This document shows, one piece after another, positions 9,684-20,733 of a stretch of 64,000 nt of DNA. The DNA comes from an uncultured Gammaproteobacteria bacterium (GTDB lineage: Bacteria; Pseudomonadota; Gammaproteobacteria; Steroidobacterales; Woeseiaceae), in the NCBI GenBank assembly GCA_963698895.1, contig CAVOSO010000005.1:6381-70380 (forward strand). Reading direction: 5' to 3'. The notes under the pieces are model-generated. The model was not told the origin of the DNA and ran no database searches. It saw only the letters and a list, made by a program, of their open reading frames with translations. How positions within the stretch are numbered: the first letter of the stretch is position 1; each line of letters opens with the position of its first letter. Position numbers and translations under genes: made by a program.

Positions 9684-10490
9684 TTACACGGTGACAACGT
9701 CACCAGCCCCGAGAATTCTGCATTTCTTCCCGAGCGCCTCTACGTCGCGTTTAAATCTTGCGTCATCCGCAACCGCAAACTTCTTCTTCCAGAGAAACGG
9801 AACACTGTAGTGACAGGGAATGACCAGTTCCGGATCGATCAGCTCGACCGCCTTGCAATTGCGTCGTCGACATCCATCGTCCAGGTGTTCCGGCCAATAC
9901 CCCCGATCGGGAGCATTAGCACAGTCGGCCTGAGGCCCTCCCAATCGGCCAGGAGCAGTGAGTCACCCAGATTCAGTATCGATTTGTTCCCGATTGTGAT
10001 CTTGAAAGCCATCGAACCGAGGCCAACGCGTTCGTCCGGACCGGGCTCCTGTCTGAACGTGAATCCAAGCAGTGGCACAGCGATGGGCCCGTGCACTGAT
10101 TTGACTGCCTCGATAGTGACGCCATCGAGCTCAATGGACTCGCCAACGTCGAGCGGGTGAAGGTTGTCAAACGGGACCCAGGACGAAAGCCCCCGACCAC
10201 GCGGATCGACAACGAGCGTTTGCTCCATTCTGAACCCTCGTCAGACCGATACCGCACACGACGTGGGCGCCCGACGCGGCGGCAACACGGTCCGACTGCC
10301 AGTGATGATCAGGATCACCGTGCGTGATGACGATATGAGTAACGGTCGGCCACTCTTCTTGCGGGACCAGACTCCTGAGGTCAAAGATCCAGAGATTCTG
10401 GCCGGGATCGATGACGACTCTTGCCTCACCCTCTTCGACCAGAAATGCGTTGTACAGGTAATGAGTGATTTTCACTGCCATTACCCCCAT
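9684..10490 (-). pseudogene. MBL-fold metallo-hydrolase split into three frames
   Basis: ORF 10167..10490 carries VTHIVITHGDPDHH (HxHxDH). ORFs 9839..10228 and 9684..9944 continue the protein (LMLPIGG..., VIPCHY...). It ends 17 nt before the oxidoreductase pseudogene start, which suggests a former operon. Confidence 0.75.
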
Positions 10491-10740
10491 CGCTATTCTC
10501 GGCTATCGCCGGAATCCGTCAATTATGGGTTCTACTGACGGCGGCGAGTCAAACGACAAAGCGGAGCCAGCTGCTAGGGATTTCGCCCGCTAATCCGTCG
10601 CCCCTGATCAAACTTCTGTTTTGTGGTTTGGGCAAGTTTCGGTTGCAACAATCAAGACACTCAGGCGGCTCTATTAGAAAAGCTTTCAGTCACTCGCAAC
10701 GTCGAGGTCTAACCCAATCTTGCCCCCTGCCCCATCTGGC

Positions 10741-10950: not shown

Positions 10951-12277
10951 ATGTATGGACTCCTCCAACCTAATTTCTTAGGTTGGAAGGTCGACCAAAA
11001 CCCAAGGGAGTCCATACATGTCATATTCAACTACAGTTGGCGTCGACCTTGCAAAGAACGTGATCCAGATCTCGGTCGTTTCGAGCCGAGGCAAAGAGCT
11101 TTGCAACCGTTCACTCACGCGCAAGAAGTTCGCGGAGTTCCTGGGTAAACAGAAGCGATCGCTTGTTGCTTTTGAGTCGTGTGCGACATCGCACTACTGG
11201 GCCCGTGCCGCAGAGCGACACGGGCACGAAGCGCGCATCATCCCGGCCAAGGCCGTGGCACCGTTCCGGCAAGGCCACAAGACCGACAGCAACGACGCCC
11301 TGGCCGTAGCCGAGGCCGCTCGCCGGCCGAACATCAAGGAAGCACCGATGAAGACGGTGGAGCAGCAAGGTCTTCAAGCCATCCACCGATCGCGTGAGTT
11401 ACTGATCCAGGAGAGCACCGCATTGTCTAACCACGTGCGCAGCCTGCTGATGGAGTTCGGTATCGTTATCAAGAGGGGCTTTGCGTCGCTTCTGCGGGCA
11501 GTGCCCGAGATCCTCGAGGATGGGGAGAACGAACTGCCCGACCTGTACCGTCCGACGCTGCATCGCATGTACACCCGGTTGTTGGAGCTGCGTGAAGACA
11601 TCGAGGCGATGACCGGGGAAGTCGAGCGCCTGGCCAAGGCTCACCCGATCTGCAGCAAGCTGATGGCACTGGAGGGTATCGGCCCGAGTCGGTGCGTTGC
11701 TGCTGTACGCCACCATGGGTTCCGGGACCGCGTTCAGCAGCGGTCGCGAGTTCGCCGCCTACCTGGGTCTGGCACCGAAGCAGTACAGCAGTGGCGGCAA
11801 GACCACCATCGTGGGCTTGAGCAAGAAGATCGGCAACAGCCGACTGCGATCGGTGCTGATCCTGGGTGCTCGTGCCTACGTGTACAAACTCAAGGAGCCC
11901 AAGAGCTCGAAGGACCGCTGGCTGAAGGCGATTATCGAACGCAACGGCGAGAGTCGCGCGGCGATTGCCCTGGCCAACAAGAACGTCAGAACCGCCTGGG
12001 CTATGGTGACCCAGGGAACAGAATATCAACGTCGAGAGCAACTGGCGATGGCTGCCTAGAACGTCCTGCAAACAGAGACCACGTATCAGATAGAGATATC
12101 TGCTCCGGTGAAACCTATACCGCTTTGAGGCCGTAGAGCCCATTGACCCTTAGAGGAGCCGGAGTGCGCATACATAGTGGGCCAGGAGATAGCGTCTCCA
12201 CCAAAAGGCCAGATATACATACGCGTCCTAATTCTGATCGAGGAAACTGTTTGCTAGACTGGAGGAGTCCATATACA
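10951..12277 (+). mobile_element. IS110-family insertion sequence (IS1111-like layout: short left end, ~220-nt right non-coding end); boundaries approximate
   Basis: Inverted repeats ATGTATGGACTCCTCCA (10951-10967) and TGGAGGAGTCCATATACA (12260-12277). A third copy of GGAGTCCATACAT abuts the start codon. The element encloses the DEDD-type transposase reading frames. Confidence 0.65.
11018..12059 (+). pseudogene. IS110-family transposase with one frameshift near 11685-11695
   Basis: The N-terminal RuvC-like part is VGVDLAKNVIQISVV...FESCATSHYWAR...KTDSNDALAVAEA in ORF 11018... The C-terminal part is GALLLYATMGSG...REFAAYLGLAPKQYSSGGK...ALANKNVRTAWAM in ORF 11697..12059, in another frame. The junction lies at ALEGIGP. 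Confidence 0.85.
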
Positions 12278-12291
12278 AAGCGGACTCCAGT

Positions 12292-12708
12292 TCACTGCTT
12301 CACAGCACTCCAGAACGACAAGAAGTTCCTTCCGGTTGAGTTCGATAGACCTTCTAGTTTGTTGTCTTCGAGCACCGCGGAGTGATTATAGGCACCGGAG
12401 CCGTCGGCAGTGACGAAAGCAATACGTAGCTTTCCCCAGTCTGTGTTGATACGTGCCTGGGAAATCGTAGTGTCATAGAAAGTGCCCTCAAAAGAACGCT
12501 CTCGCACTGATGTCACAACAAACTCTTTGTAGTAAGGCTCGGAATCCGGCGTAGGCCGCAGGTCAACTCTCCACGTTCCGAGCAAGATGTCCGGAGCTAC
12601 AGGCTGTCGCGGTGATTCGTTCAATGCACACGCGCTGAGGCAAGAACATATCAGAAATGCCAAGAGTGATTTTGCGTGCCATGCCGAGAGAAACTTGAGA
12701 TTTTTCAT
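12292..12708 (-). CDS. small lipoprotein, unknown function
   Basis: The internal ATG at 12708 gives MKNLKFLSAWHAKSLLAFLICSCLSACA, a signal peptide plus lipobox Cys. Confidence 0.6.
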   Translation of the reverse strand: MKNLKFLSAWHAKSLLAFLICSCLSACALNESPRQPVAPDILLGTWRVDLRPTPDSEPYYKEFVVTSVRERSFEGTFYDTTISQARINTDWGKLRIAFVTADGSGAYNHSAVLEDNKLEGLSNSTGRNFLSFWSAVKQ

Positions 12709-12821
12709 GCGATTTCTTCTTTGATGCTGGATGCCGAAGGCAACAATACTGTGGGCCACTAACAATGAAAAGAATCACCTTTCACGATAGCCCTTCTAGG
12801 TGGTTCGCGGAGTCCCCTCTT

Positions 12822-12930
12822 GGCCGACCGCGGTAGTTCGCCAGGAGCATGAATGAGCGGCTGGTTTACCTCGCACTCCAGCCGGTCAAGTTTTCTGCGG
12901 TATGATGGGTGCTGATGACCCAAAGCAGCC
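12822..12930 (-). repeat. conserved ~110-nt module, copy A (part of micro-ORF 12759..12941)
   Basis: Aligns with 16267-16376 and 22711-22820. Central hairpin CGGCTGG/CCAGCCG. On the minus strand it reads HQHPSYRRKLDRLECEVNQPLIHAPGE. Confidence 0.6.
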
Positions 12931-12935
12931 ATTAA

Positions 12936-12976
12936 GTACATCCCAGAATTGACGGGTAATTCCTACCTGCCAAGAT
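12936..12976 (+). promoter_or_regulatory. promoter box A: GTACATCCCAGAATTGAC(G)-16 nt-CAAGAT
   Basis: The 18-nt box is identical to copies C and D. It holds a TTGACG -35-like hexamer and a -10-like xAxxAT at 16-nt spacing. The riboswitch-like leader begins about 10 nt later. Confidence 0.5.
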
Positions 12977-12983
12977 CATCAAT

Positions 12984-13095
12984 CGATAAAGGCAAACCTG
13001 AAAAAGTCAGGGACGCAATACCACGGGCCCTCGGTTTCTTTGAAAAGCCATCGATCACTTCTCGAAGGATCCAAGACCGCGGCGCCTCGGGATGG
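12984..13095 (+). promoter_or_regulatory. GEMM-I (c-di-GMP-I) riboswitch-like leader, copy A (divergent, possibly degenerate)
   Basis: AAAGGCAAACCTGAaaaagTCAGGGACGCAATACCACGGGCCC matches the 5' half of the GEMM-I signature. The ACGCAAAGC box reads ACGCAATAC, and the 3' GCCGGGCTGCC strand is replaced by CCGCGGCGCCTCGG. Confidence 0.45.
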
Positions 13096-13444
13096 TCTAG
13101 AAATCGATTCGGGAGTCCGAAATTGAAGGGCCCCAGCGCAGATATTGCCTGGCTTCCTACGGAACCCAGCGACCGTTGTCAATCTATCCGACGGGAATTT
13201 TGCATGTGACGAGCACTGGTCACGAATGGTATCCCTGGAGCGTCAGGGAAATAGAACGAAACTCAAACGTGATACATAAGGCGGCTTGTCGTTTTGACAC
13301 GACCCATGACAATGACATGACTCGAGTGGACTGCAATCAAATAGACTTCAACCCGGATGTCGCCGTTTTCTTGAACTGACTGGAGGCGTGAAGATATTTG
13401 TTGAGGGATTACTTTCGAGGATTGTAGTGTAGGAGTTTTTGCCA

Positions 13445-13939
13445 ATGAGGAAAAAAATACTACATAGCCTAACTCTCCTAGGTATGTTGTCTTTATATGG
13501 ATGCAGTGCAGCTCAATTAGCAAGTATAAGCGAGGCATTTGATTGTGCTGACCCCCTTTCCATCGATTGCTCTGTCTCAAGACAAAGAGCAAATGAGGAA
13601 AGGCGAAAGGCAGATGAATATAGGCGCGAACAAGAACGGTATGAACGCGAATACGCAGAGTATCTGGATTGCCTTAACAGACGAGAGGAAGCTAAGGTTT
13701 GGGAAGCGGAAGCTGAAGAAGCTGAACATGATTATGAAAGATGGCGGTTAGAGCAAAAATATCTTGAGGACGGTGTTCTGGATGAGTTAGAGCAAGCGGC
13801 TCTTAAGGAAGAAATTCGAGTTCTAACCGAGCTTAGAGAATTTCAAGCTAAGCGCTCGAAGGTATGGCAAGAAAAATATTTGGAAGATACTAGTTGTTAT
13901 AAGCCCTACAGACCCATTGAGCCCTACTACTCATACTAG
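13445..13939 (+). CDS. lipoprotein with highly charged coiled-coil-like region
   Basis: AGGAG lies 9 nt before the ATG at 13445. MRKKILHSLTLLGMLSLYGCS is a lipobox. A long E/R/K-rich segment follows (RRKADEYRREQERYEREYAEY...). The local DNA is AT-rich. Confidence 0.6.
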   Translation: MRKKILHSLTLLGMLSLYGCSAAQLASISEAFDCADPLSIDCSVSRQRANEERRKADEYRREQERYEREYAEYLDCLNRREEAKVWEAEAEEAEHDYERWRLEQKYLEDGVLDELEQAALKEEIRVLTELREFQAKRSKVWQEKYLEDTSCYKPYRPIEPYYSY

Positions 13940-14126
13940 TAGATGTTTGTAAGAACTCTGCCATTCATGAGCCGCCGAGTTTCCAGTCATCGTATCGCAG
14001 TTGTTTGCGCATCGGCCGCTTATGAATTGTTGGGAAATTGACATGCGATAAGTCCGGATCGAACATGCGCGACGCGTAGCAATCAGAATCGGGGCACGAT
14101 CGGATGGCTACTACTCGCATATATAC

Positions 14127-14522
14127 TCACTCACTGCATAGGTACTTCTCTCCTGCCCGCGTATTACCTTTCCGCCACATTGTAACGAATTTATGTTTGG
14201 GGTTCGATGAAACCGCCACCGCGGCGTCTTCATCCGATTCTTGCGCATCATCATGAACTGTCGGACTGCTCGAATAGCTTCCATTTTCCAGCCCTGATTT
14301 TGATTTCCAATGGGTACAGTACTTCTGTTGATAAGCTTCCTGTTTCCAACTTGAACAATGGCCATTGGAGCCACTGCTCGCGCACACTTGTCGATACGCC
14401 GTCCGATATGACCATCCGGTGCAGTTTTCGTCGTAAGCGATCAGAGCTCCACACCCCGACACGAATAAGACGGGGCCCGTAGCGAGCGTAAGCACCGCAC
14501 CTACAGTGGCTGTCCTGCACAT
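14127..14522 (-). CDS. small Cys-rich lipoprotein, unknown function
   Basis: ATG at 14522 preceded by AAGGGGTGA. MCRTATVGAVLTLATGPVLFVSGCG is a lipobox. Confidence 0.6.
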   Translation of the reverse strand: MCRTATVGAVLTLATGPVLFVSGCGALIAYDENCTGWSYRTAYRQVCASSGSNGHCSSWKQEAYQQKYCTHWKSKSGLENGSYSSSPTVHDDAQESDEDAAVAVSSNPKHKFVTMWRKGNTRAGEKYLCSE

Positions 14523-14684
14523 GTTCTTCACCCCTTGAGAAACAACAAATTGTGCTCTATCCAACGGTGATTGCCACAGTCGATTTTGGGATTTACTTAT
14601 CGTCCGATCTTGGTGGTTGGCTGAACGTCACCATTTCCCAAACAAGAAGTTCAGCTGGCTGATATTCGAAAAAGCGGACGTTAC

Positions 14685-14725
14685 GTAGATCCCAGAATTG
14701 ACTGACTCTTTCGCAGGCGCACAAT
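14685..14725 (+). promoter_or_regulatory. promoter box B: GTAGATCCCAGAATTGAC(T)-17 nt-CACAAT
   Basis: One mismatch to the 18-nt box. The mismatch destroys the minus-strand ATG present in copies A, C and D. Same geometry relative to riboswitch B. Confidence 0.5.
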
Positions 14726-14727
14726 AG

Positions 14728-14830
14728 CTCTAATAAAGGCAAGTCTGACCAGAGTCAGTTACGCAAAGCTACGGGGCCTCGTCTCCTTCGGGCCGTCTCC
14801 AAAGGATTCAAGATCGCCGGGCTGCCACCC
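14728..14830 (+). promoter_or_regulatory. GEMM-I (c-di-GMP-I) riboswitch-like leader, copy B
   Basis: AAAGGCAAGTCTGACcagaGTCAGTTACGCAAAGCTACGGGGCC...CAAGATCGCCGGGCTGCC. It ends about 15 nt before the SD (GGAG at 14846) of ORF 14857. UCUCC motifs inside the second arm are complementary to that SD. Confidence 0.75.
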
Positions 14831-14856
14831 AATTACCTGAAGTGCGGAGAAGGAGA

Positions 14857-15231
14857 ATGACAAATCTGCGAATTGAAGATTGGCAGCTTGGCCAGGCCGC
14901 TTTTTTATTACGACCCCTGGTCATACTGTGTGTTGTCGTCGCATTGCTCTGTATTCCGACCGGAAATACTTGGGCGGATGCTAAAGAAAAGTGGAATGTC
15001 GATATTGGACGCGTTGGCTCAGAATCAGCCTCAATGTGTTTTGTTAGCCTGCCAAGTGCGAACACTGGCTGCGCTAGCGATATCGTCTTCTGCAGAGATG
15101 GCGACAATTGTAAGTCAATGTGCACGACACTCCTATCAGTAAAGCTAGCCGGCAGGCGCCTAACGCGCATCAGATATGATCTCAACACGACGAACCAGTT
15201 GTGCCTATTGACAGGGATAATGTTTGAGTAA
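14857..15231 (+). CDS. small secreted Cys-rich protein, unknown function
   Basis: GGAG lies 7 nt upstream of the ATG at 14857. MTNLRIEDWQLGQAAFLLRPLVILCVVVALLCIPTGNTWA has signal-peptide character. The predicted mature part contains six cysteines. Confidence 0.5.
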   Translation: MTNLRIEDWQLGQAAFLLRPLVILCVVVALLCIPTGNTWADAKEKWNVDIGRVGSESASMCFVSLPSANTGCASDIVFCRDGDNCKSMCTTLLSVKLAGRRLTRIRYDLNTTNQLCLLTGIMFE

Positions 15232-15280
15232 ATTGTGCTCAAAGGGCATTAGTTGCAAGTCGAGTTTTCCGAGAAATATC

Positions 15281-16132
15281 ATGCGCCAACGTAATGCTGT
15301 TGCCATACGATCCGTGTTCATAACACTATCCGCAATAGTTGTCATTTGCGGTTTCGTAACGGCCGCGGCAGCGCAAGACGAGGGATCTGTAAGAAGAACG
15401 GCATTCATAGTCAATGTTCATGGTTGGCAGTTTGAGAATGCTGGTTTTCGTTTATGTGAAACAGCGGAATGCGTTGTCGAACATGGAGGGGCACTTATAC
15501 CGGCCCAATTCCTGTCAACTACGTATCCCTGGGCCCTATGCGGTGGGATGTCTCTTAGCGCACTAAGAAGGTTCCGTGAGGCTCGACCAGTCGAACAGCT
15601 TTCTTATGAAGTGAAGGATGAACTTAGAAATGCCCAGGTAGAGACTGTGAATGTTAGTACGAATACTTTTTGGAGATACACCAGTCGACTAGCGCGTGTC
15701 AGACCCACTCTTGGACAGAGTACGAATCAGTACTGGCAGATCGTGAAACAGTCCATTGACAAGGGCGAGCCAATTATTCTTGGTTTGATCTATGCACGAT
15801 CAAGATTGCCCCACGATGTCTTCAAGAATCATCAGGTTCTGGCGATTGGATACGAAACAAGAGGAACGGAACGTCCAATCTCGATTATTGTGTACGATCC
15901 GAATTTCCCAGCAGAGGAATCGCGCATAGAGCTCCTCTTAGAGGAACAGCCGGGGAATTTCGCACATATTGCCAAGGTGCGGAAGTATAAGAGCCATGGG
16001 GTTTCAACAGAACATAGACGATGTGTTGGCTGTACCGACGAAATCTTTGGGTTCTTCCCAATTCCTATTGGAACTGGGCCAACAATCGTATTGCCTGTAT
16101 GGCACGTCCCAGCCTTGTCACTGATGATGTGA
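15281..16132 (+). CDS. secreted protein with possible papain-like Cys/His/Asp arrangement
   Basis: The ATG at 15281 gives the signal peptide MRQRNAVAIRSVFITLSAIVVICGFVTAAAAQ. Ordered candidates for a Cys-His-Asp/Asn triad are WALCGGMSLSAL, NHQVLAIGYE and IIVYDPNFP. The fold call is inference only. Confidence 0.55.
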   Translation: MRQRNAVAIRSVFITLSAIVVICGFVTAAAAQDEGSVRRTAFIVNVHGWQFENAGFRLCETAECVVEHGGALIPAQFLSTTYPWALCGGMSLSALRRFREARPVEQLSYEVKDELRNAQVETVNVSTNTFWRYTSRLARVRPTLGQSTNQYWQIVKQSIDKGEPIILGLIYARSRLPHDVFKNHQVLAIGYETRGTERPISIIVYDPNFPAEESRIELLLEEQPGNFAHIAKVRKYKSHGVSTEHRRCVGCTDEIFGFFPIPIGTGPTIVLPVWHVPALSLMM

Positions 16133-16266
16133 AGTAAGATACGACAAATTTACGTCCTGCGAGCAAGTGAATCCCCATTGTAGCCGTAGAGTTTTCTGTT
16201 GTGGTCATCGACCGTCCAGGTGGGGTAGTCCTAACTCATTATTGCCACTCTCGAACGACAGCTAAT

Positions 16267-16376
16267 GGCCCGTTCTGAGACGTTCACCAGGAAGCTGACC
16301 GAGCGGCTGCTTCACGCTGTATAGCAGCCGGTCAAGTAATTTACGGTAATATGACGGCTTGTGAACCACAGCAGCG
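16267..16376 (-). repeat. conserved ~110-nt module, copy C (part of micro-ORF ending at 16262)
   Basis: Central hairpin GGCTGCT/AGCAGCC. On the minus strand it reads HKPSYYRKLLDRLLYSVKQPLGQLPGERLRTGH then a stop. Confidence 0.6.
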
Positions 16377-16411
16377 ATTCGCCAATCGAGCTTCGACGGC
16401 TTCGAATTTAA

Positions 16412-16452
16412 GTACATCCCAGAATTGACAATCTCCTGGGGATTGCTAGAAC
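16412..16452 (+). promoter_or_regulatory. promoter box C: GTACATCCCAGAATTGAC(A)-16 nt-TAGAAC
   Basis: Exact 18-nt box. TTGACA -35 and TAGAAC -10-like hexamer. Riboswitch C starts just downstream. Confidence 0.55.
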
Positions 16453-16457
16453 CTGCT

Positions 16458-16570
16458 GTTGACAAAGGCAAATCTAGCCAAAGCTAGAGACGCAAAGCCA
16501 CGGGTCCTCGCGTACTCCGCTACGCCTCCTGCGACGCGGCGAAGAACCCCAAGATCGCCGGGCTTCCGAG
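16458..16570 (+). promoter_or_regulatory. GEMM-I (c-di-GMP-I) riboswitch-like leader, copy C
   Basis: AAAGGCAAATCTAGCcaaaGCTAGAGACGCAAAGCCACGGGTCC...CAAGATCGCCGGGCTTCC. It ends about 27 nt before GAGGAG (16598-16603) and the GTG start at 16610. Confidence 0.75.
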
Positions 16571-16609
16571 TTTTCCAATCAGACCATCGGACTAGATGAG
16601 GAGCGGGTC

Positions 16610-17650
16610 GTGAACAGCATCAAGCTATTTTGGCTGTTGATAAGTGTGGGGCTACTGGGTGGCTGCGGCGGTGGTAGCGATGACGATACAATCAATAATA
16701 CTGCGGATGTGCCACCAACGATCTTGCCGGTCTACAACTTCCAGCTCGCAGGAGTTCAGCCCGGTACAGATATGACGGTCGATGTCGGTAACCTGTTTCA
16801 GGTCCGTGTCGACTTAGGCGACACTTTGCGTGGCAGCGTCAATCTTCAGGTCAACAGCCCGAGCAACGTTAGCTTCCTCGACTTCGTCACCAACGCCGGT
16901 TCGACGATGACAGTGGCGGTCGTGGGCAGCAAGACAGGACTGGACGGTGAATTTACAATCAATGTCACCACGGACGTCGTTGCCGGTCGTGACGACGAAC
17001 CGTCGAGCGGTGCTTTTGAGGTCGTGACGGAAGCCGATGTTTCAACAGTCGCCTTCGTAGCAAACGGTGTCGAACTGAGTCTAAACGGTGGAGCGCCGAT
17101 CTCATTCAGCTGGAATGACTACGATAATCTGCTGGACGATGTCCAGGCCCAGACGTGGCAACGCCGTGCATCGTTGGCCGGCGGGACATTTGCGTTCATC
17201 TTTGAACGTATGTTCGAAATCGCCGAACTTCTGGATAGCCTCGAGCTAACCGAGTCAACTGTTCCGGTAGTGACCGCATGTGATGAGTTCCCGGGCACGC
17301 CGCCTGTCGGTGTATTGCTGCAGGGTGAACACGTGTTGACTCGCCTGGGATCGTTTGAGGACCTGTCGCCGGGTGACGTGTTCGACTGGACATTTACCAA
17401 CTGCTGGTTTGCCTCTTCGAACACACTGATCGATAACTTTTTGCAGATGCAAAATTACATCGAAGTCATCGATTCCAGCAATACGCTGACGCGTATTGGC
17501 TTCGGGCCATACAACAATATGACTGGCGGAGTTCTCTATTTCGATTGGACTGTCGCTGAACCCGAAGAGAATCAGGGCGTGTACACGATTGATCCTGAGG
17601 ACCGAATCGTGGTCAACGGTGGATTCTCTATGCTGTTCACACAGCCCTAA
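16610..17650 (+). CDS. lipoprotein, unknown function
   Basis: GAGGAG lies 6 nt before the GTG. MNSIKLFWLLISVGLLGGCGGGSDDD is a lipobox. No recognisable catalytic motif. Confidence 0.7.
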   Translation: MNSIKLFWLLISVGLLGGCGGGSDDDTINNTADVPPTILPVYNFQLAGVQPGTDMTVDVGNLFQVRVDLGDTLRGSVNLQVNSPSNVSFLDFVTNAGSTMTVAVVGSKTGLDGEFTINVTTDVVAGRDDEPSSGAFEVVTEADVSTVAFVANGVELSLNGGAPISFSWNDYDNLLDDVQAQTWQRRASLAGGTFAFIFERMFEIAELLDSLELTESTVPVVTACDEFPGTPPVGVLLQGEHVLTRLGSFEDLSPGDVFDWTFTNCWFASSNTLIDNFLQMQNYIEVIDSSNTLTRIGFGPYNNMTGGVLYFDWTVAEPEENQGVYTIDPEDRIVVNGGFSMLFTQP

Positions 17651-17811
17651 CAACATCAGCCAAGCGCCCGGTCGGCCTGCAAGGCGCCCGGGCGCTATTC
17701 GCTCAGTGAACGTCTGCTCCTGGCTGGTTTCAGCCGATCTCCTTTTACGAGGTAGAATGGCGGCTGCTGGTCCATTGCTGCCATTCGGCAGGACAAGATG
17801 CGGAAGTCTCA

Positions 17812-18192
17812 ATGTCTGAACGTATACAGGAAAAAATTGGTTGGATTGGCGGGTGGTCTGGAGGATTCATCTGGGTTGTTATTCTCTCAGTAGTACTGCT
17901 ATTCAAAGGCCAGACGCTTGGTGCGGTTGCTGGATTCATTATTGCCGGGGTGGCCGGATTGGCAATTTTGCTCACCTCGCCCTGGCGGCACCCTCGCACG
18001 CCTTATCGGATACTGATGATACCGATTTACCTTCTTCTGTTTGTCGCCGTTGGCTGGGGTGTGTGTACCTTGGATGGACCGGAGAACATAGGATTCTCAA
18101 GTTGGTGGTCATTGGCAATCCTGTTCCCGGCGCTGCTGCCGCTGTGGACAGTGGGCAATCGACGCTGGGACGACGGAATGAGAGGTCATTAG
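17812..18192 (+). CDS. small integral membrane protein (about 4 TM segments)
   Basis: 126-aa ORF with four hydrophobic segments (GGFIWVVILSVVLLF, AVAGFIIAGVAGLAILL, ILMIPIYLLLFVAVGWGV, WWSLAILFPALLPLW). Confidence 0.6.
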   Translation: MSERIQEKIGWIGGWSGGFIWVVILSVVLLFKGQTLGAVAGFIIAGVAGLAILLTSPWRHPRTPYRILMIPIYLLLFVAVGWGVCTLDGPENIGFSSWWSLAILFPALLPLWTVGNRRWDDGMRGH

Positions 18193-18290: not shown

Positions 18291-18331
18291 GTACATCCCA
18301 GAATTGACTCGGGCAATTAACGGCGCATCAT
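18291..18331 (+). promoter_or_regulatory. promoter box D: GTACATCCCAGAATTGAC(T)-16 nt-CATCAT, no riboswitch downstream
   Basis: Exact 18-nt box about 45 nt upstream of the GGGGAGG SD and the ATG at 18376 of the GFA gene. Confidence 0.5.
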
Positions 18332-18375
18332 CCTTATCGGTGAGTTCGGCAAACCGAAACCTGGGGAGGCAACAA

Positions 18376-18729
18376 ATGGAACAACACTACGAAGGTGGGT
18401 GCCAGTGCGGCGCCGTCGCTTATGAGGTCGAAGTGGATGTTGATGGGTGTATAACGTGCAACTGCTCGCGCTGTCAGCCCCTCGGCGCCATTTTGGCGTT
18501 CGCGCCGCGTTCGCAATTCAAGCTCCTGAAGGGTGAAGACAACCTCACGGAGTATCGATTCAACAAGAAATTGATCGCACATCTATTCTGCAAGACGTGT
18601 GGGATACAGAGTTTCGCATACGGAGCCATGCCGGATGGTTCGGAGATCGCGGCGATCAATCTCAATACGCTGCACGGCCTGGATCCCAAATCTCTGAATC
18701 CGAAGCATGTCGACGGGCGGTCGATGTAG
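18376..18729 (+). CDS. GFA (glutathione-dependent formaldehyde-activating / CENP-V-like) family zinc protein
   Basis: MEQHYEGGCQCGAVAYEV...CNCSRCQ...FCKTCG shows the typical GFA cysteine pattern. GGGGAGG SD. Confidence 0.8.
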   Translation: MEQHYEGGCQCGAVAYEVEVDVDGCITCNCSRCQPLGAILAFAPRSQFKLLKGEDNLTEYRFNKKLIAHLFCKTCGIQSFAYGAMPDGSEIAAINLNTLHGLDPKSLNPKHVDGRSM

Positions 18730-18789
18730 ACGTAAGGTCGTTGGTCTGGAATCTGCCTAATAGGCGGCTTTTGGCCGAAGTGAGCCGGT

Positions 18790-19417
18790 CAACAAAAGTT
18801 GGCGTCGACCCTGCAAAGAAGGTCATCCAGGTCTCAGTAGTTTCCCCTCGCGGCAAAGAGCTGCTTAACCGATCGTTTACGCGGACCAAGTTCGCAGAGT
18901 TCCTGGGTAGAAAAAGCCGGCACTGTCGAACCACCTGCGCGGTATCCTGCTCGAGTTCGGCGTGGCGATACCGCAGGGCTTTGCCTCGTTACTCAAGACG
19001 TTGCCGGAGATCCTCGAAGACATCGAGTCGATGACCAAGGAAGTCGACGGCCTGGTAAAGCAGCACCCGGTCTGCAAGCGTCTCACGGCGATCGAGGGCA
19101 TCGGTCCGATCGGTGCACTGTCGCTGTATGCCGTGATGGGCTCCGGCAAGGCCTTCACCAAGAGCCGCGATCGTTGAAAGATCGCTGGCTGAAGGATCTC
19201 ATTGAACGGGCGGGACCGAACCGCGCCGCGGTTGCGCTGGCCAACAAGAATGTACGAACGGCCTGGGTGATGGTGACCCAGGGAACTGAATACCAACGTC
19301 GGCTGCAACTGTCGATGGCTGCCTAGAACGTTCTGCAAACAGAGACCACGTATCAGATAGAGATATCTGCTCCGGTGAAACCTAGACCGCTTTGAGGCCC
19401 TAGAGCCCGCTGACCCT
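18790..19417 (+). mobile_element. relic of the same IS110-family element (5'-truncated, three internal deletions, 3'-truncated)
   Basis: VGVDPAKKVIQVSVVSPRGKELLNRSFTRTKFAEFLG jumps to ALSNHLRGILLEFGVAIPQGFASLL. It then runs LPEILEDIESMTKEVDGLVKQHP...GIGPIGALSLYAVMGSGKAFTKSRD and RWLKDLIERAG...ALANKNVRTAWVMVTQGTEYQRR. The 94 nt from the stop codon (19324-19417) match 12057-12150 with 5 mismatches. Confidence 0.8.
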
Positions 19418-19586: not shown

Positions 19587-20516
19587 TTACGGCAGCTGCT
19601 CAAGCGCGGCCTCGGCCATCAGAGCATGCATTTTTCTCGTCGGGTGCAGCGGATCCCAGAATAAATACTCATCGCGATTCTTGCAGAACGCCCCTTCGGT
19701 GACGCCAAACGCCACGCAGGAATCTGTGACATTCGTGAGGCCGAATGCTTCCGGCGCGGCAAGCATCCCGCTGAAGAAAGCAAAGAAATCGACGACCGAG
19801 ACATTCATGTTGAACGGCTCGCCGGCGAAGGACTGGATCATGGGCGCTAGTAACATGTAATTGTAGAGCGCGCTGCCGCTCGGTGCCGGCGGATCCTGAG
19901 GTGGTGGGGCTATGGGTGAGGCCTCCAACGGCGGAATATAGGCGAACAGCAGATTACGCGCACCGCAACCATGGAGAGTGACGATATTCTCAGCGATGCT
20001 GGCGGTCATGCCGCCGAGGACGGCAAATGCGTCCTCTCCGTTGAGCAGGTCGAGCAGGTCAAAGTAGGCGGAATCCACGATGAACAGAGTGTCGTCCATG
20101 GGGGCGCCGGTGCAGTATCCATTGTCTTTCCAGGCCTGCACCTGGTCGTACAGGCTGGGGAGCACGTCGGCTGAGAATTCCCGAGCGCGCCCGTAACCGA
20201 CGGCATAGTTGCCAAAGACCGGGTTTCGATAGGCGGGCATTGCGCCTTTGGTCAGTTTCATCTCTGCCGCGAGGACTTCAACCCAGGTGCGGCCGTTGCT
20301 GAAATTGTAGCCTCCAATAGGATAACTGGGGCCAAATAGCTCAAACGGCGGGTGCGCAGTCTCGCCGGTCAACGCGAAGTGGTTGCCGGAATCCATGAAG
20401 CTGGCACCGAAGATGAAGATACGGTCATAGTCGTGGTCGGTATCCGCGACGGCCATCCCGGTCGCAAGTGGCAGAAGGGCCAGCAAGGCGACCATCATGC
20501 GTTTCAGAGTCTTCAT
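19587..20516 (-). CDS. SGNH/GDSL-family lipase/esterase, secreted
   Basis: ATG at 20516 preceded by GGAGAG. Signal peptide MKTLKRMMVALLALLPLATGMAVA. Block I is IFIFGASFMDSGN and block V is LFWDPLHPT (DxxH). Confidence 0.8.
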   Translation of the reverse strand: MKTLKRMMVALLALLPLATGMAVADTDHDYDRIFIFGASFMDSGNHFALTGETAHPPFELFGPSYPIGGYNFSNGRTWVEVLAAEMKLTKGAMPAYRNPVFGNYAVGYGRAREFSADVLPSLYDQVQAWKDNGYCTGAPMDDTLFIVDSAYFDLLDLLNGEDAFAVLGGMTASIAENIVTLHGCGARNLLFAYIPPLEASPIAPPPQDPPAPSGSALYNYMLLAPMIQSFAGEPFNMNVSVVDFFAFFSGMLAAPEAFGLTNVTDSCVAFGVTEGAFCKNRDEYLFWDPLHPTRKMHALMAEAALEQLP

Positions 20517-20733
20517 TTTATCTCTCCATTCAGTGACTCCGGGGCCGCAATCCCCAGGGACTGCCACCCCGTACAGGTAGCCTACGAAGGTCGTTTTATC
20601 GGTGCATGACGGCTGGGTGACGGGCAGCTGACGGTATCGGGACGAACCCGCTTTCAGTGCGTCGATAGTTCGGTTTACCACATGGTATTCACCTCCCGAA
20701 GCCTTAGAATGGGAGTCAAGAGGACAACATCCT

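What the first reader, a model, noticed from the sequence alone, without database searches (positions are those of the whole stretch)
12984..16570. Three GEMM-I (c-di-GMP-I) riboswitch-like leaders within 3.6 kb, in front of unknown lipoprotein and secreted-protein genes
Three plus-strand segments share the GEMM-I signature: AAAGGCAA(A/G), then a hairpin, then ACGCAA(A/T)(G/A)C(C/T)ACGGG(G/T/C)CC. Copies B and C also share the 3' strand CAAGATCGCCGGGCT(G/T)CC.

The first hairpin differs in sequence in every copy but stays base-paired. Copy A has CCTGA/TCAGG, B has CTGAC/GTCAG and C has TCTAGC/GCTAGA. That is the compensatory pattern expected for a functional RNA helix.

Each element begins about 33-35 nt after a conserved TTGAC box, which places it at the predicted transcript 5' end. 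B and C stop just before the Shine-Dalgarno of the downstream gene (14857 and 16610). CUCC-type tracts in the second arm are complementary to those SDs, which would fit translational control.

Copy A deviates at conserved positions (ACGCAATAC, altered 3' strand). It may be decayed or have altered specificity.

The regulated genes are all small exported proteins of unknown function. No GGDEF, EAL or PilZ gene lies in the window, so the RNA would be their only visible link to cyclic-dinucleotide signalling.
Basis: partly seen in the sequence, partly recalled or inferred. Interest (0 to 1): 0.8.

Follow-up and report, generated by a model that had tools for sequence, protein, structure and literature searches.

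The report
Two c-di-GMP riboswitches, one decayed copy
Two of the three leaders are genuine c-di-GMP-sensing riboswitches of a well-known class and the third is a broken copy; they belong to a promoter-plus-riboswitch module found in front of many secreted-protein genes in the marine-sediment family Woeseiaceae, so this is ordinary in kind but a neat lineage-specific expansion.

Summary
Copy C (16457-16571) and copy B (14728-14830) pass Rfam's c-di-GMP-I model RF01051 (59.1 and 41.3 bits; cut-off 35). Copy A scores only 27.1.

A model built from 51 relatives shows that A (12984-13090) is a full-length homologue. About half the pairs of its ligand-binding helix are broken and family-invariant bases are changed, so it is most likely a decayed copy.

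The first hairpin covaries strongly across relatives. The ligand-contact positions equivalent to G20, A47 and C92 are the canonical G, A and C, so the predicted ligand is c-di-GMP, not cGAMP.

The "TTGAC box" is part of a 21-nt motif, TTAnGTACATCCCAGAATTGAC, with a cAnAAT -10 hexamer most often 16 nt downstream. The exact 18-mer occurs in more than 118 genome loci. Nearly all are Woeseiaceae or related gammaproteobacterial MAGs, and most are followed about 33 nt later by this aptamer.

No intrinsic terminator lies between aptamer and start codon. A conserved CUUCCUCC-type tract in the long second arm can pair with the ribosome-binding site: 11 bp in B and 16 bp in C. Translational control is therefore the likeliest mechanism. 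Its direction, probably ON with c-di-GMP, is only inferred.

These are new members of a known class. Interest is modest.

The parts
12936..12953 (+). Promoter box of copy A (GTACATCCCAGAATTGAC, holds the -35 TTGAC)
   Evidence: Exact 18-mer. The same box is conserved in more than 118 Woeseiaceae-type loci.
12984..13090 (+). Copy A: full-length but decayed homologue of the aptamer (pseudo-riboswitch)
   Evidence: 63.6 bits on clade model R1, with about 9 non-standard pairs, mostly in the P2 base helix. Only 27.1 bits on RF01051, below the cut-off of 35. Family-invariant GCAAAGCC is GCAATACC here, and GCCGGGCTGCC is GCGGCGCCTCG.
13125..13158 (+). Possible second, also imperfect, 3' strand of copy A (GAAGGGCCCCA...ATATTGCCTGGCTTCC)
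   Evidence: Weak nhmmer match to model positions 82-109 (E 0.077). By my own hand pairing it would form only about 6 of 10 pairs with the 5' strand.
13445..13939 (+). Gene A: 164-aa lipoprotein (LYGC lipobox), about 355 nt downstream of copy A
   Evidence: ORF list. No Pfam match. In L095 its homologue is the second gene behind an intact aptamer.
14685..14702 (+). Promoter box of copy B (GTAGATCCCAGAATTGAC, one mismatch)
   Evidence: The promoter scan gives TTGACT, a 16-nt spacer, then CACAAT ending at 14725.
14728..14830 (+). Copy B: c-di-GMP-I aptamer, an atypical member with a short second arm
   Evidence: RF01051 41.3 bits, above the cut-off of 35. R1 85.2 bits. RF03167 38.6 bits, below its cut-off of 59.
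14779..14789 (+). Anti-SD / anti-start tract of B (UCGUCUCCUUC) in the 5' strand of the distal second arm
   Evidence: Pairs with 14849-14860 (GAAGGAG.AUGA) in the unconstrained minimum-energy fold.
14846..14859 (+). Shine-Dalgarno (GGAGAAGGAGA) and ATG of gene B
   Evidence: Sequence. SD bases are at most 0.09 unpaired in the ligand-free ensemble.
14857..16132 (+). Operon behind B: 124-aa signal-peptide protein (14857-15231) and 283-aa protein (15281-16132)
   Evidence: ORF list. The 283-aa protein has a weak Peptidase_C39_2 match (E 3e-4, below cut-off). The same three genes sit together on a Logan contig.
16412..16429 (+). Promoter box of copy C
   Evidence: Exact 18-mer.
16457..16571 (+). 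Copy C: canonical member of the Woeseiaceae c-di-GMP-I aptamer family
   Evidence: RF01051 59.1 bits. RF03167 59.0 bits, at its cut-off of 59. R1 118.2 bits with no non-standard pair. Aptamer sequence (16464-16567) identical to that in L035.
16508..16528 (+). Anti-SD / anti-start tract of C
   Evidence: 16 pairs with 16598-16613 (GAGGAGCGGGUCGUGA) in the unconstrained fold; duplex -21.5 kcal/mol.
16598..16612 (+). Shine-Dalgarno (GAGGAG) and GTG start of gene C
16610..17650 (+). Gene C: 346-aa lipoprotein (LLGGC lipobox), no known domain
   Evidence: Homologues in L035 (the surrounding DNA is 94% identical), L053 (52%) and L075 (35%) all sit behind the same aptamer.
18291..18308 (+). Fourth exact promoter box, before a GFA-domain gene (18376-18729), with no aptamer
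   Evidence: The same box-plus-gene unit is in L022, L038 and L084 at about 92-94% identity.
14579..14596 (-). Diverged box (3 mismatches) on the minus strand, before the lipoprotein gene 14127-14522 (-), with no aptamer

Best explanation
**What they are.** Copies B and C are functional class I c-di-GMP riboswitches (GEMM-I). Each sits at the very 5' end of an mRNA for exported proteins. Each mRNA is made from a sigma-70-type promoter whose -35 region lies inside a conserved 21-nt box. Copy A is a homologous copy that has lost the base pairing of its ligand-binding helix and probably no longer senses anything.

**Family.** All three belong to a Woeseiaceae-wide family in which the same box-plus-aptamer module precedes many genes for lipoproteins and secreted proteins.

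**Mechanism (inferred).** Without ligand, a pyrimidine-rich tract in the 5' strand of the long second arm pairs with the Shine-Dalgarno sequence and start codon and blocks initiation. The tract is CUUCCUCC in most relatives, UCUCCUUC in B and CUCCGCU...CCUC in C. When c-di-GMP binds, the aptamer folds, the tract is held inside the arm, the ribosome-binding site is freed and translation goes up.

**Shown here:** class membership, covariation, conservation of the ligand-contact bases, promoter conservation, absence of a terminator, and the complementarity.

**Inferred:** ligand binding, the transcription start, the translational level of control, and above all its direction.

**Confidence by part.** The overall figure of 0.8 applies to class membership of B and C and to the decay of A. 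Translational control is about 0.6. The ON direction is about 0.55-0.6 given translational control.
For: - **Rfam.** RF01051 gives 59.1 bits for C and 41.3 for B, against a cut-off of 35.
- **Clade model R1.** 118.2, 85.2 and 63.6 bits for C, B and A.
- **Covariation.** 97.4% of cells are paired, and 5 of 6 pairs of hairpin 1 change on both sides. The score is 0.242 against 0.119 +/- 0.008 in shuffles and at most 0.059 for slid partners. Pair 45-97 occurs as GU, GC and AU.
- **Ligand-contact bases.** The G20 and C92 equivalents (A3 columns 8 and 108) and the A47 equivalent are invariant in 51 relatives. All 79 aptamer-like sequences have A at the A47 position. Their roles are described in PMC6140456.
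- **Promoter.** The box is followed by cAnAAT, most often after 16 nt (61 of 108). The spacers themselves are unconserved.
- **No terminator.** No plus-strand terminator-like site lies between either aptamer and its start codon.
- **SD sequestration.** The SD and start codon pair with the arm tract in the free fold. Forcing the aptamer costs 11.0 kcal/mol in B and 3.3 in C, with a median of 6.6 in 42 relatives.
- **Matching of tract and RBS.** The 5' 22 nt of the arm binds its own ribosome-binding site better than those of other family members (-14.6 against -13.7 kcal/mol; permutation p = 0.005). Control segments do not.
- **Decayed copies in relatives.** Scores of 22-76 bits occur, below the 80-129 bits of intact copies.
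Against: - No experiment is available: ligand binding, the transcription start and regulation are all untested.
- B departs from several near-invariant family positions (GGCAAG, loop CAGA, UACGC, one mismatch in each helix). It clears the Rfam cut-off by only 6 bits.
- In C, the aptamer-enforced fold still pairs the SD with another segment.
- Across 42 relatives the SD pairs with the arm in only 40% of free folds. Predicted SD pairing falls only from 0.67 to 0.58. Nested-fold programs also exclude arm-to-SD pairing by construction once the aptamer is forced.
- An anti-SD tract is complementary to any SD, so part of the complementarity is trivial. The family test includes orthologous, non-independent members.
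- The hairpin-1 loop is mostly CAAA, not GNRA, and the canonical tetraloop receptor is absent. The conserved CUUCCUCC tract could instead be a tertiary docking element.
Confidence: 0.8

Rival explanations
1. The aptamers are real, but control acts on transcription or mRNA fate rather than on translation initiation. Candidate routes are Rho-dependent termination, transcript stability, or the weak hairpin-plus-T-run at 14880-14905.
For: Many characterised c-di-GMP-I riboswitches act through terminators (my own knowledge; see also PMC11218506). A terminator-like site lies 23 nt inside gene B. Thermodynamic support for SD release is modest. A blocked ribosome-binding site would itself expose the mRNA to Rho.
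Against: No terminator-like site lies between aptamer and start codon in B or C. The number of such sites in the region (8) is close to the shuffled expectation (5.4 +/- 2.3). Aptamer-to-start distances are short, 26-90 nt in most relatives. The arm tract pairs directly with the SD and start codon.
Confidence: 0.2
2. It is a translational OFF switch: c-di-GMP binding lowers expression and the ligand-free state is the expressed one.
For: In C's aptamer-enforced fold the SD is still paired, with 16563-16575. The direction cannot be read from sequence alone. Both ON and OFF members of the class are known (title of PMC9262584).
Against: In B, and in 40% of relatives, the ligand-free fold hides the SD in the aptamer arm, which the folded aptamer would withdraw. 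The regulated genes encode surface, adhesin-like and extracellular proteins (beta-helix, collagen repeat, BNR, CBM20). By general knowledge such proteins usually rise with c-di-GMP.
Confidence: 0.3
3. The RNAs sense a different ligand. They could be a variant class such as c-di-GMP-I-GGC or cGAMP-type GEMM-Ib.
For: Rfam's variant model RF03167 matches C at its cut-off (59.0 against 59). It matches relatives at up to 73.4 bits, above their RF01051 scores. The tetraloop and receptor are non-canonical.
Against: The only core difference between the two Rfam consensus sequences is GCGAA against GCAAA, at the A47 position. That position is A in B, in C and in all 79 aptamer-like relatives. The G20 equivalent is G, not the A of cGAMP riboswitches, and the C92 equivalent is C.
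Confidence: 0.07
4. Copy A is not dead. It is a working variant that uses the distal 3' strand at 13125-13158, or it has a new function such as a constitutive leader structure.
For: A second 3'-strand-like stretch exists. Hairpin 1, the G20 and A47 equivalents and the promoter box are intact.
Against: With either 3' strand, only about 5-6 of the 10 pairs of the binding-site helix form (and hand pairing). Two family-invariant bases in GCAAAGCC are changed. The match at 13125-13158 is not significant (E 0.077). The gene lies 355 nt further on. Comparable decayed copies exist in relatives.
Confidence: 0.12

Closest known systems
c-di-GMP-I (GEMM-I) riboswitch, Rfam RF01051; type example Vc2 of Vibrio cholerae
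   Same: Two-hairpin aptamer with the conserved AAAGGCAAA...GACGCAAAGC...GCCGGGCUGCC core. The ligand-contact bases are G, A and C at the G20, A47 and C92 equivalents. It lies in the 5' UTR of genes for surface and extracellular functions. B and C pass the curated score.
   Different: The second arm is 19-43 nt longer than the Rfam consensus and carries a conserved CUUCCUCC-type tract in place of the CUAAG/UAUG tetraloop receptor. The hairpin-1 loop is mostly CAAA rather than GNRA. The closing P1 helix is at most about 3 bp, because the transcript seems to start a few nt before the aptamer.
c-di-GMP-I-GGC variant, Rfam RF03167 (same clan CL00126; a bioinformatic variant with no ligand known to me)
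   Same: The scaffold is the same: a minimal P1 and a receptor-less second arm. C scores 59.0 bits, at the cut-off. Relatives score 59-73 bits and are reported by Rfam under this name.
   Different: The position that distinguishes the two consensus sequences (G in GACGCGAA) is A in every window copy and every relative examined. B scores only 38.6 bits. By my recollection the name GGC denotes the bases at the three ligand-contact positions. I could not check this in a paper I could access.
Multi-copy GEMM-I regulons, for example Geobacter and Clostridioides difficile (from general knowledge; C. difficile review PMC11477304 listed)
   Same: Many separate genes per genome each carry their own c-di-GMP-family aptamer. 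Targets are typically pili, flagella, adhesins and secreted proteins.
   Different: Here the aptamer travels with a 21-nt near-invariant promoter box and REP-like hairpins. The likely platform is SD sequestration rather than a terminator. The lineage, Woeseiaceae, is not mentioned together with riboswitches in any paper of the searched library.
GEMM-Ib 3'3'-cGAMP riboswitches (Geobacter)
   Same: Same fold and clan.
   Different: They carry A at the G20 position (PMC6140456). All copies here carry G.

Membership tests
c-di-GMP-I riboswitch (RF01051) | Covariance-model score at or above the curated gathering score of 35 bits | tested here: met
   C 59.1 bits and B 41.3 bits. Copy A scores 27.1 bits and fails, so A is not filed as a member on this test.
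c-di-GMP-I riboswitch (RF01051) | Two hairpins joined by the conserved junction (GGC-AAA-hairpin-GAC-GC-AA-second arm), with base pairing supported by covariation | tested here: met
   97.4% of cells are paired. 5 of 6 pairs of hairpin 1 change on both sides. 0 of 500 shuffles reach the observed covariation score, and slid controls reach at most 0.059 against 0.242. The base of the second arm is invariant, so it says nothing either way.
c-di-GMP-I riboswitch (RF01051) | Ligand-contact bases G20, A47 and C92 (Vc2 numbering) | tested here: met
   By alignment to the Rfam consensus, G, A and C are present in B, in C and in all 51 aligned relatives. Roles of G20 and C92 are taken from PMC6140456. 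The role of A47 is from my own knowledge.
c-di-GMP-I riboswitch (RF01051) | GNRA tetraloop on hairpin 1 docking into a receptor in the second arm (type 1 architecture) | tested here: not met
   The loops are CAAA (C), CAGA (B) and AAAA (A). Only a minority of relatives have GAAA. The CUAAG/UAUG receptor positions of the consensus are replaced. By my recollection this feature is not universal in the class, so failing it does not exclude membership.
c-di-GMP-I riboswitch (RF01051) | Selective high-affinity binding of c-di-GMP and ligand-dependent gene control | not testable with these tools
   Needs in-line probing or ITC, and reporter assays.
c-di-GMP-I riboswitch (RF01051) | Location in a 5' UTR with an expression platform | tested here: met
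   A conserved -35/-10 promoter puts the start a few nt before the aptamer. The start codon lies 27-42 nt after the aptamer. The arm tract is complementary to the SD and start codon. The start site and the platform are inferred, not measured.
c-di-GMP-I-GGC variant (RF03167) | Score at or above the gathering score of 59 bits | tested here: inconclusive
   C scores 59.0 bits, exactly at the cut-off. It was not listed in the gathering-mode run but was listed in E-value mode. B scores 38.6 bits and fails.
c-di-GMP-I-GGC variant (RF03167) | G instead of A at the A47 position (GACGCGAA in the family consensus) | tested here: not met
   The position is A in B, in C and in all 79 aptamer-like sequences in the fetched loci.
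GEMM-Ib cGAMP riboswitch | A at the G20 position | tested here: not met
   G is invariant at A3 column 8. The determinant is from PMC6140456.
c-di-GMP-II riboswitch (RF01786) | Match to the family model | tested here: not met
   No such match in the window at the gathering score, nor at E up to 1 in 12900-16700.

The most novel reading that the evidence does not exclude
The 21-nt box, the REP-like hairpins upstream of it and the aptamer with its built-in anti-SD arm form a lineage-specific promoter-riboswitch cassette. Duplication and recombination have placed this cassette in front of dozens of fast-turning-over secretome genes per Woeseiaceae genome.

The near-invariant GTACATCCCAGAA part of the box, upstream of the -35, would be the operator of a dedicated transcription factor, possibly itself responsive to c-di-GMP. 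These genes would then be gated at two levels: transcription through the box and translation through the RNA.

For: the box also precedes genes without an aptamer. Synteny between genomes breaks at the box or hairpin region. Intact, truncated and decayed aptamers coexist for the same gene families.

No factor has been identified, and the box may be no more than a strong promoter inherited with the module.
Probability: 0.3. Interest if true: 0.55.

Novelty: new member of a known kind. Interest (0 to 1): 0.33.

Why it matters
The riboswitch class is textbook knowledge, so the window copies add members rather than a new principle. Their value is in the context.

Woeseiaceae are widespread marine-sediment bacteria known mostly from MAGs. 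These leaders show that a large set of their lipoprotein and secreted-protein genes is wired directly to c-di-GMP. The products include beta-helix, collagen-repeat, BNR, starch-binding, TonB-receptor and GDSL-lipase proteins, and many orphans such as genes B and C here.

The leaders also give a compact, testable module: a defined promoter box, an aptamer and an anti-SD arm. Natural intact, atypical and decayed copies sit side by side, which is useful for studying how riboswitch regulons grow and decay.

There is a practical point for annotation. Rfam's clan competition labels many of these RNAs c-di-GMP-I-GGC, although they carry the canonical base at the position that distinguishes that variant.

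Tried and rejected
- **Source contig.** Exact-protein look-ups to find it gave nothing for gene C or a 622-aa gene. The 283-aa protein gave one Logan contig, without DNA.
- **First aptamer pattern.** My first pattern search had the wrong spacing and found nothing.
- **Integron-like cassette idea.** Conserved junctions, small orphan genes, low G+C and an IS110 insertion suggested it. I rejected it as a formal model. Homology breakpoints against relatives fall at different places (16301; 18252, 18280 and 18291). The junction repeats are simple REP-like hairpins, not R''/R' inverted core sites. The conserved sequence after the junction is a promoter with a -10 box.
- **GFA-gene leader.** By eye, 18341-18375 looks like a relic of hairpin 1 (GGCAAACCGAAACCUGGGGAGGCAA). 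The clade model gives only 3.4 bits (E 3.7), so this stays an impression.
- **Deleted gene between copy A and gene A.** In L095 a 340-aa lipoprotein gene lies there. No trace of it was found in the window by tblastn or blastn.
- **Alternative register for the second arm.** GGGUCCU pairing with AGGACCC was considered. The Rfam register is favoured, because pair 45-97 varies as GU, GC and AU while the alternative would then mismatch.
- **FleQ-type site.** I recalled a resemblance of the box to such a site, but only from memory and could not test it. It is not used as evidence.
- **Literature.** No paper in the searched library holds both 'Woeseia' and 'riboswitch'. The paper that I believe defined c-di-GMP-I-GGC is not held.

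Full report

Yes. Reading 12800-16800 shows the three plus-strand segments with AAAGGCAA(A/G), a short hairpin and ACGCAA(A/T)(G/A)C(C/T)ACGGG.

Copies B and C also share CAAGATCGCCGGGCT(G/T)CC. Aligning the three regions shows they share a whole module: an upstream box, the aptamer and a 3' strand.

The 14-mer ATCCCAGAATTGAC is exact before each copy. It has 7 matches at up to 2 mismatches against 0.39 expected. The 18-mer GTACATCCCAGAATTGAC has six copies at up to 3 mismatches against 0.01 expected. All six lie between 10.5 and 18.3 kb of the window.

**2.

A scan of the whole window against Rfam 15 at gathering thresholds gives exactly two hits, both to RF01051 c-di-GMP-I:
- 16457-16570, 59.1 bits;
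- 14728-14829, 41.3 bits (cut-off 35).

Copy A reaches only 27.1 bits, and the alignment truncates its second arm.

**3. Relatives.**

About ten are obvious chance hits (Collinsella, cyanobacteria and others). The rest are Woeseiaceae or unclassified gammaproteobacterial MAGs, often with several loci per genome.

In most of them the box is followed about 32-40 nt later by the same aptamer. I aligned 51 distinct aptamers including B and C, wrote the Rfam-type structure onto the alignment, and built a clade model, R1.

R1 finds 71 full-length copies at 80-129 bits in the 118 loci (838 kb). It also finds a tail of 14 weaker copies at 22-76 bits.

Aptamers that were not the reason a locus was fetched still carry the box with 1-3 mismatches in most cases. 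The box-aptamer link is therefore not an artefact of how the loci were found.

L035 carries the orthologue of copy C and its gene at 94% identity. Homology ends about 110 nt upstream of the box and about 110 nt after the gene.

**4. Structure and ligand.**

On the 51-sequence alignment, 97.4% of cells form standard pairs. Five of the six pairs of hairpin 1 change on both sides: 90 cells against 30.7 +/- 9.1 in shuffles. No shuffle or slid control comes close.

The base of the second arm is almost invariant, so it is uninformative. The exception is pair 45-97, which occurs as GU, GC and AU.

The bases aligned to G20, A47 and C92 of Vc2 are G, A and C in B, in C and in every relative. G20 and C92 recognise the two guanines of c-di-GMP, and cGAMP riboswitches have A at position 20 (PMC6140456). 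The expected ligand is therefore c-di-GMP.

A late check showed that Rfam also holds RF03167, c-di-GMP-I-GGC, in the same clan. C scores 59.0 bits, at its cut-off of 59. B scores 38.6. Several relatives score 60-73 bits and are reported under that name.

The two consensus sequences differ in the core only at GACGC**G**AA against GACGC**A**AA. All sequences here have A. They share the scaffold of the variant (tiny P1, no tetraloop receptor, long second arm) but not its distinguishing base. I file them under c-di-GMP-I.

**5. Copy A.**

With the clade model, A is clearly a full-length homologue (12984-13090; 63.6 bits, E about 1e-15). About nine pairs are non-standard, concentrated in the helix that forms the binding pocket.

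Family-invariant GCAAAGCC reads GCAATACC, and GCCGGGCUGCC reads GCGGCGCCUCG. A second 3'-strand-like stretch at 13125-13158 is detectable only weakly (E 0.077) and pairs no better.

A's score falls in the tail of decayed copies seen in relatives. The gene it precedes starts 355 nt further on.

In L095 the homologue of that gene is the second gene behind an intact aptamer and a 340-aa lipoprotein gene. The window keeps no trace of that gene.

Decay, not new specificity, is the best reading. Confidence is about 0.85.

**6. Promoter.**

Across 108 non-redundant boxes the conserved block is TTAnGTACATCCCAGAATTGAC. It is followed by an unconserved spacer and a cAnAAT hexamer, most often 16 nt after TTGACn (61 of 108).

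For B the consensus scan gives TTGACT-16-CACAAT. A start about 7 nt later falls 2-6 nt before the conserved (c/u)GAUAAAGGC.

The box also precedes genes without an aptamer:
- a GFA-domain gene at 18376;
- a minus-strand lipoprotein gene at 14522;
- an MBL-fold ORF at 10490.

**7. Expression platform.**

No terminator-like site lies between either aptamer and its start codon. The only nearby one, 14880-14905, is inside gene B, and the count of such sites is at the chance level.

In the unconstrained folds, the SD and start codon pair with the pyrimidine tract in the 5' strand of the distal second arm:
- B: 14779-14789 with 14849-14860, 11 pairs;
- C: 16508-16528 with 16598-16613, 16 pairs.

Forcing the aptamer costs 11.0 kcal/mol in B and largely frees its SD. 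In C it costs 3.3 kcal/mol and the outcome is unclear.

Across 42 relatives with a confident start codon:
- the free fold almost never contains the aptamer (1 of 42), and the median cost of forcing it is 6.6 kcal/mol;
- the SD pairs with the arm in 40% of cases.

The 5' 22 nt of the arm binds ribosome-binding sites at about -14 kcal/mol, against about -10 for control segments. It binds its own site better than those of other members (residual -0.84 kcal/mol, p = 0.005).

This supports translational control through an anti-SD built into the aptamer arm. The direction (ON with ligand) is my inference. I give it roughly 0.55-0.6, conditional on translational control.

**8. What is regulated.**

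Genes A, B and C and the 283-aa gene have signal peptides or lipoboxes and no significant Pfam domain.

In relatives the aptamer-led genes nearly all start with signal peptides. Their Pfam matches include right-handed beta-helix, collagen repeats, BNR/Asp-box, pullulanase X25/CBM20, TonB-dependent receptor and GDSL lipase.

Gene C has homologues behind the same aptamer in L035, L053 (52%) and L075 (35%).

The window holds no GGDEF, EAL or PilZ gene by motif scan or by the Pfam families listed for 43 larger ORFs.

**9. Context.**

The six boxes lie in a stretch of lower G+C, 46-55% against 59% for the window as a whole. It contains two IS110-family copies. One is a fragment that interrupts a REP-like hairpin just after the GFA gene.

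Upstream of the boxes are one to four imperfect hairpin repeats of the form GCnGCU...UGACCCAAAGC...nGnC, whose stems change in a compensatory way.

Clusters of two to four aptamer-led genes within a few kb also occur in relatives, for example L058, L106, L110 and L113.

**10. Verdict.**

B and C are new members of a known riboswitch class, and A is a pseudo-copy. The lineage-wide promoter-riboswitch module is a worthwhile side result that I did not find described in the searched library. It is an expansion of a known kind of regulon rather than a new kind of system.

Interest is 0.33.

Noticed in passing
window 10518-10535(-), 12936-12953, 14579-14596(-), 14685-14702, 16412-16429, 18291-18308; L001-L118: A 21-nt box, TTAnGTACATCCCAGAATTGAC, with a cAnAAT hexamer most often 16 nt downstream. 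It occurs six times within 8 kb of the window and nowhere else in it. The exact 18-mer is found in more than 118 loci of Woeseiaceae-type genomes. It also precedes genes that have no aptamer.
   Followed up: yes
window 12836-12933 and 16282-16379; 18740-18778; L038 1430-1490 and 1950-2040: REP-like imperfect hairpin repeats (GCnGCU - loop such as UGACCCAAAG - AGCnGnC), in one to four copies upstream of the boxes. Their stems change in a compensatory way (GGCTGCT/AGCAGCC against GGCTGG/CCAGCC). A second palindrome, TTAGAC...GTCTAA, often lies next to the box. Their function is unknown.
   Followed up: partly
window 11018-12136 and about 18778-19326: Two IS110-family transposase copies (Pfam DEDD_Tnp_IS110). 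Each is split over more than one reading frame, so both look disrupted or partial. The second begins where homology to L038 stops, inside a REP-like hairpin after the GFA gene. This suggests insertion into that hairpin.
   Followed up: partly
window 18309-18375; L022, L038, L055, L084; also L039, L040, L074, L093, L062, L080: Leaders behind boxes that lack an aptamer look by eye like relics of hairpin 1 fused to an SD (for example GGCAAACCGAAACCUGGGGAGGCAACAAAUG). The clade model does not score the window example significantly (3.4 bits).
   Followed up: partly
L054 compared with L009, L016, L023, L032: The same gene family (product starting MPLHLEPLD...) has an intact aptamer in four genomes. 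In a fifth the leader after the same box is truncated. Aptamer loss appears to be recurrent.
   Followed up: no
L075, L027, L106, L058, L010, L110, L015, L035, L038: Rfam's clan competition reports these aptamers as RF03167 c-di-GMP-I-GGC (59-73 bits). They nevertheless carry A, not G, at the position that distinguishes that variant's consensus.
   Followed up: yes
window 14880-14905 (+): A weak terminator-like hairpin with a T-run lies 23 nt inside gene B. The number of such sites in the region is at the chance level.
   Followed up: no
window 12000-18000: A stretch of lower G+C (46-55% against 59% for the window and up to 68% further on) coincides with the box-led small exported-protein genes and the IS copies. 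It looks like a variable island.
   Followed up: partly
window 19587-20681(-) and L069: A GDSL-lipase gene; its likely start is at 20516. Its homologue in L069 is led by an intact aptamer. In the window, homology stops at the start codon, and no box or aptamer is found upstream.
   Followed up: partly
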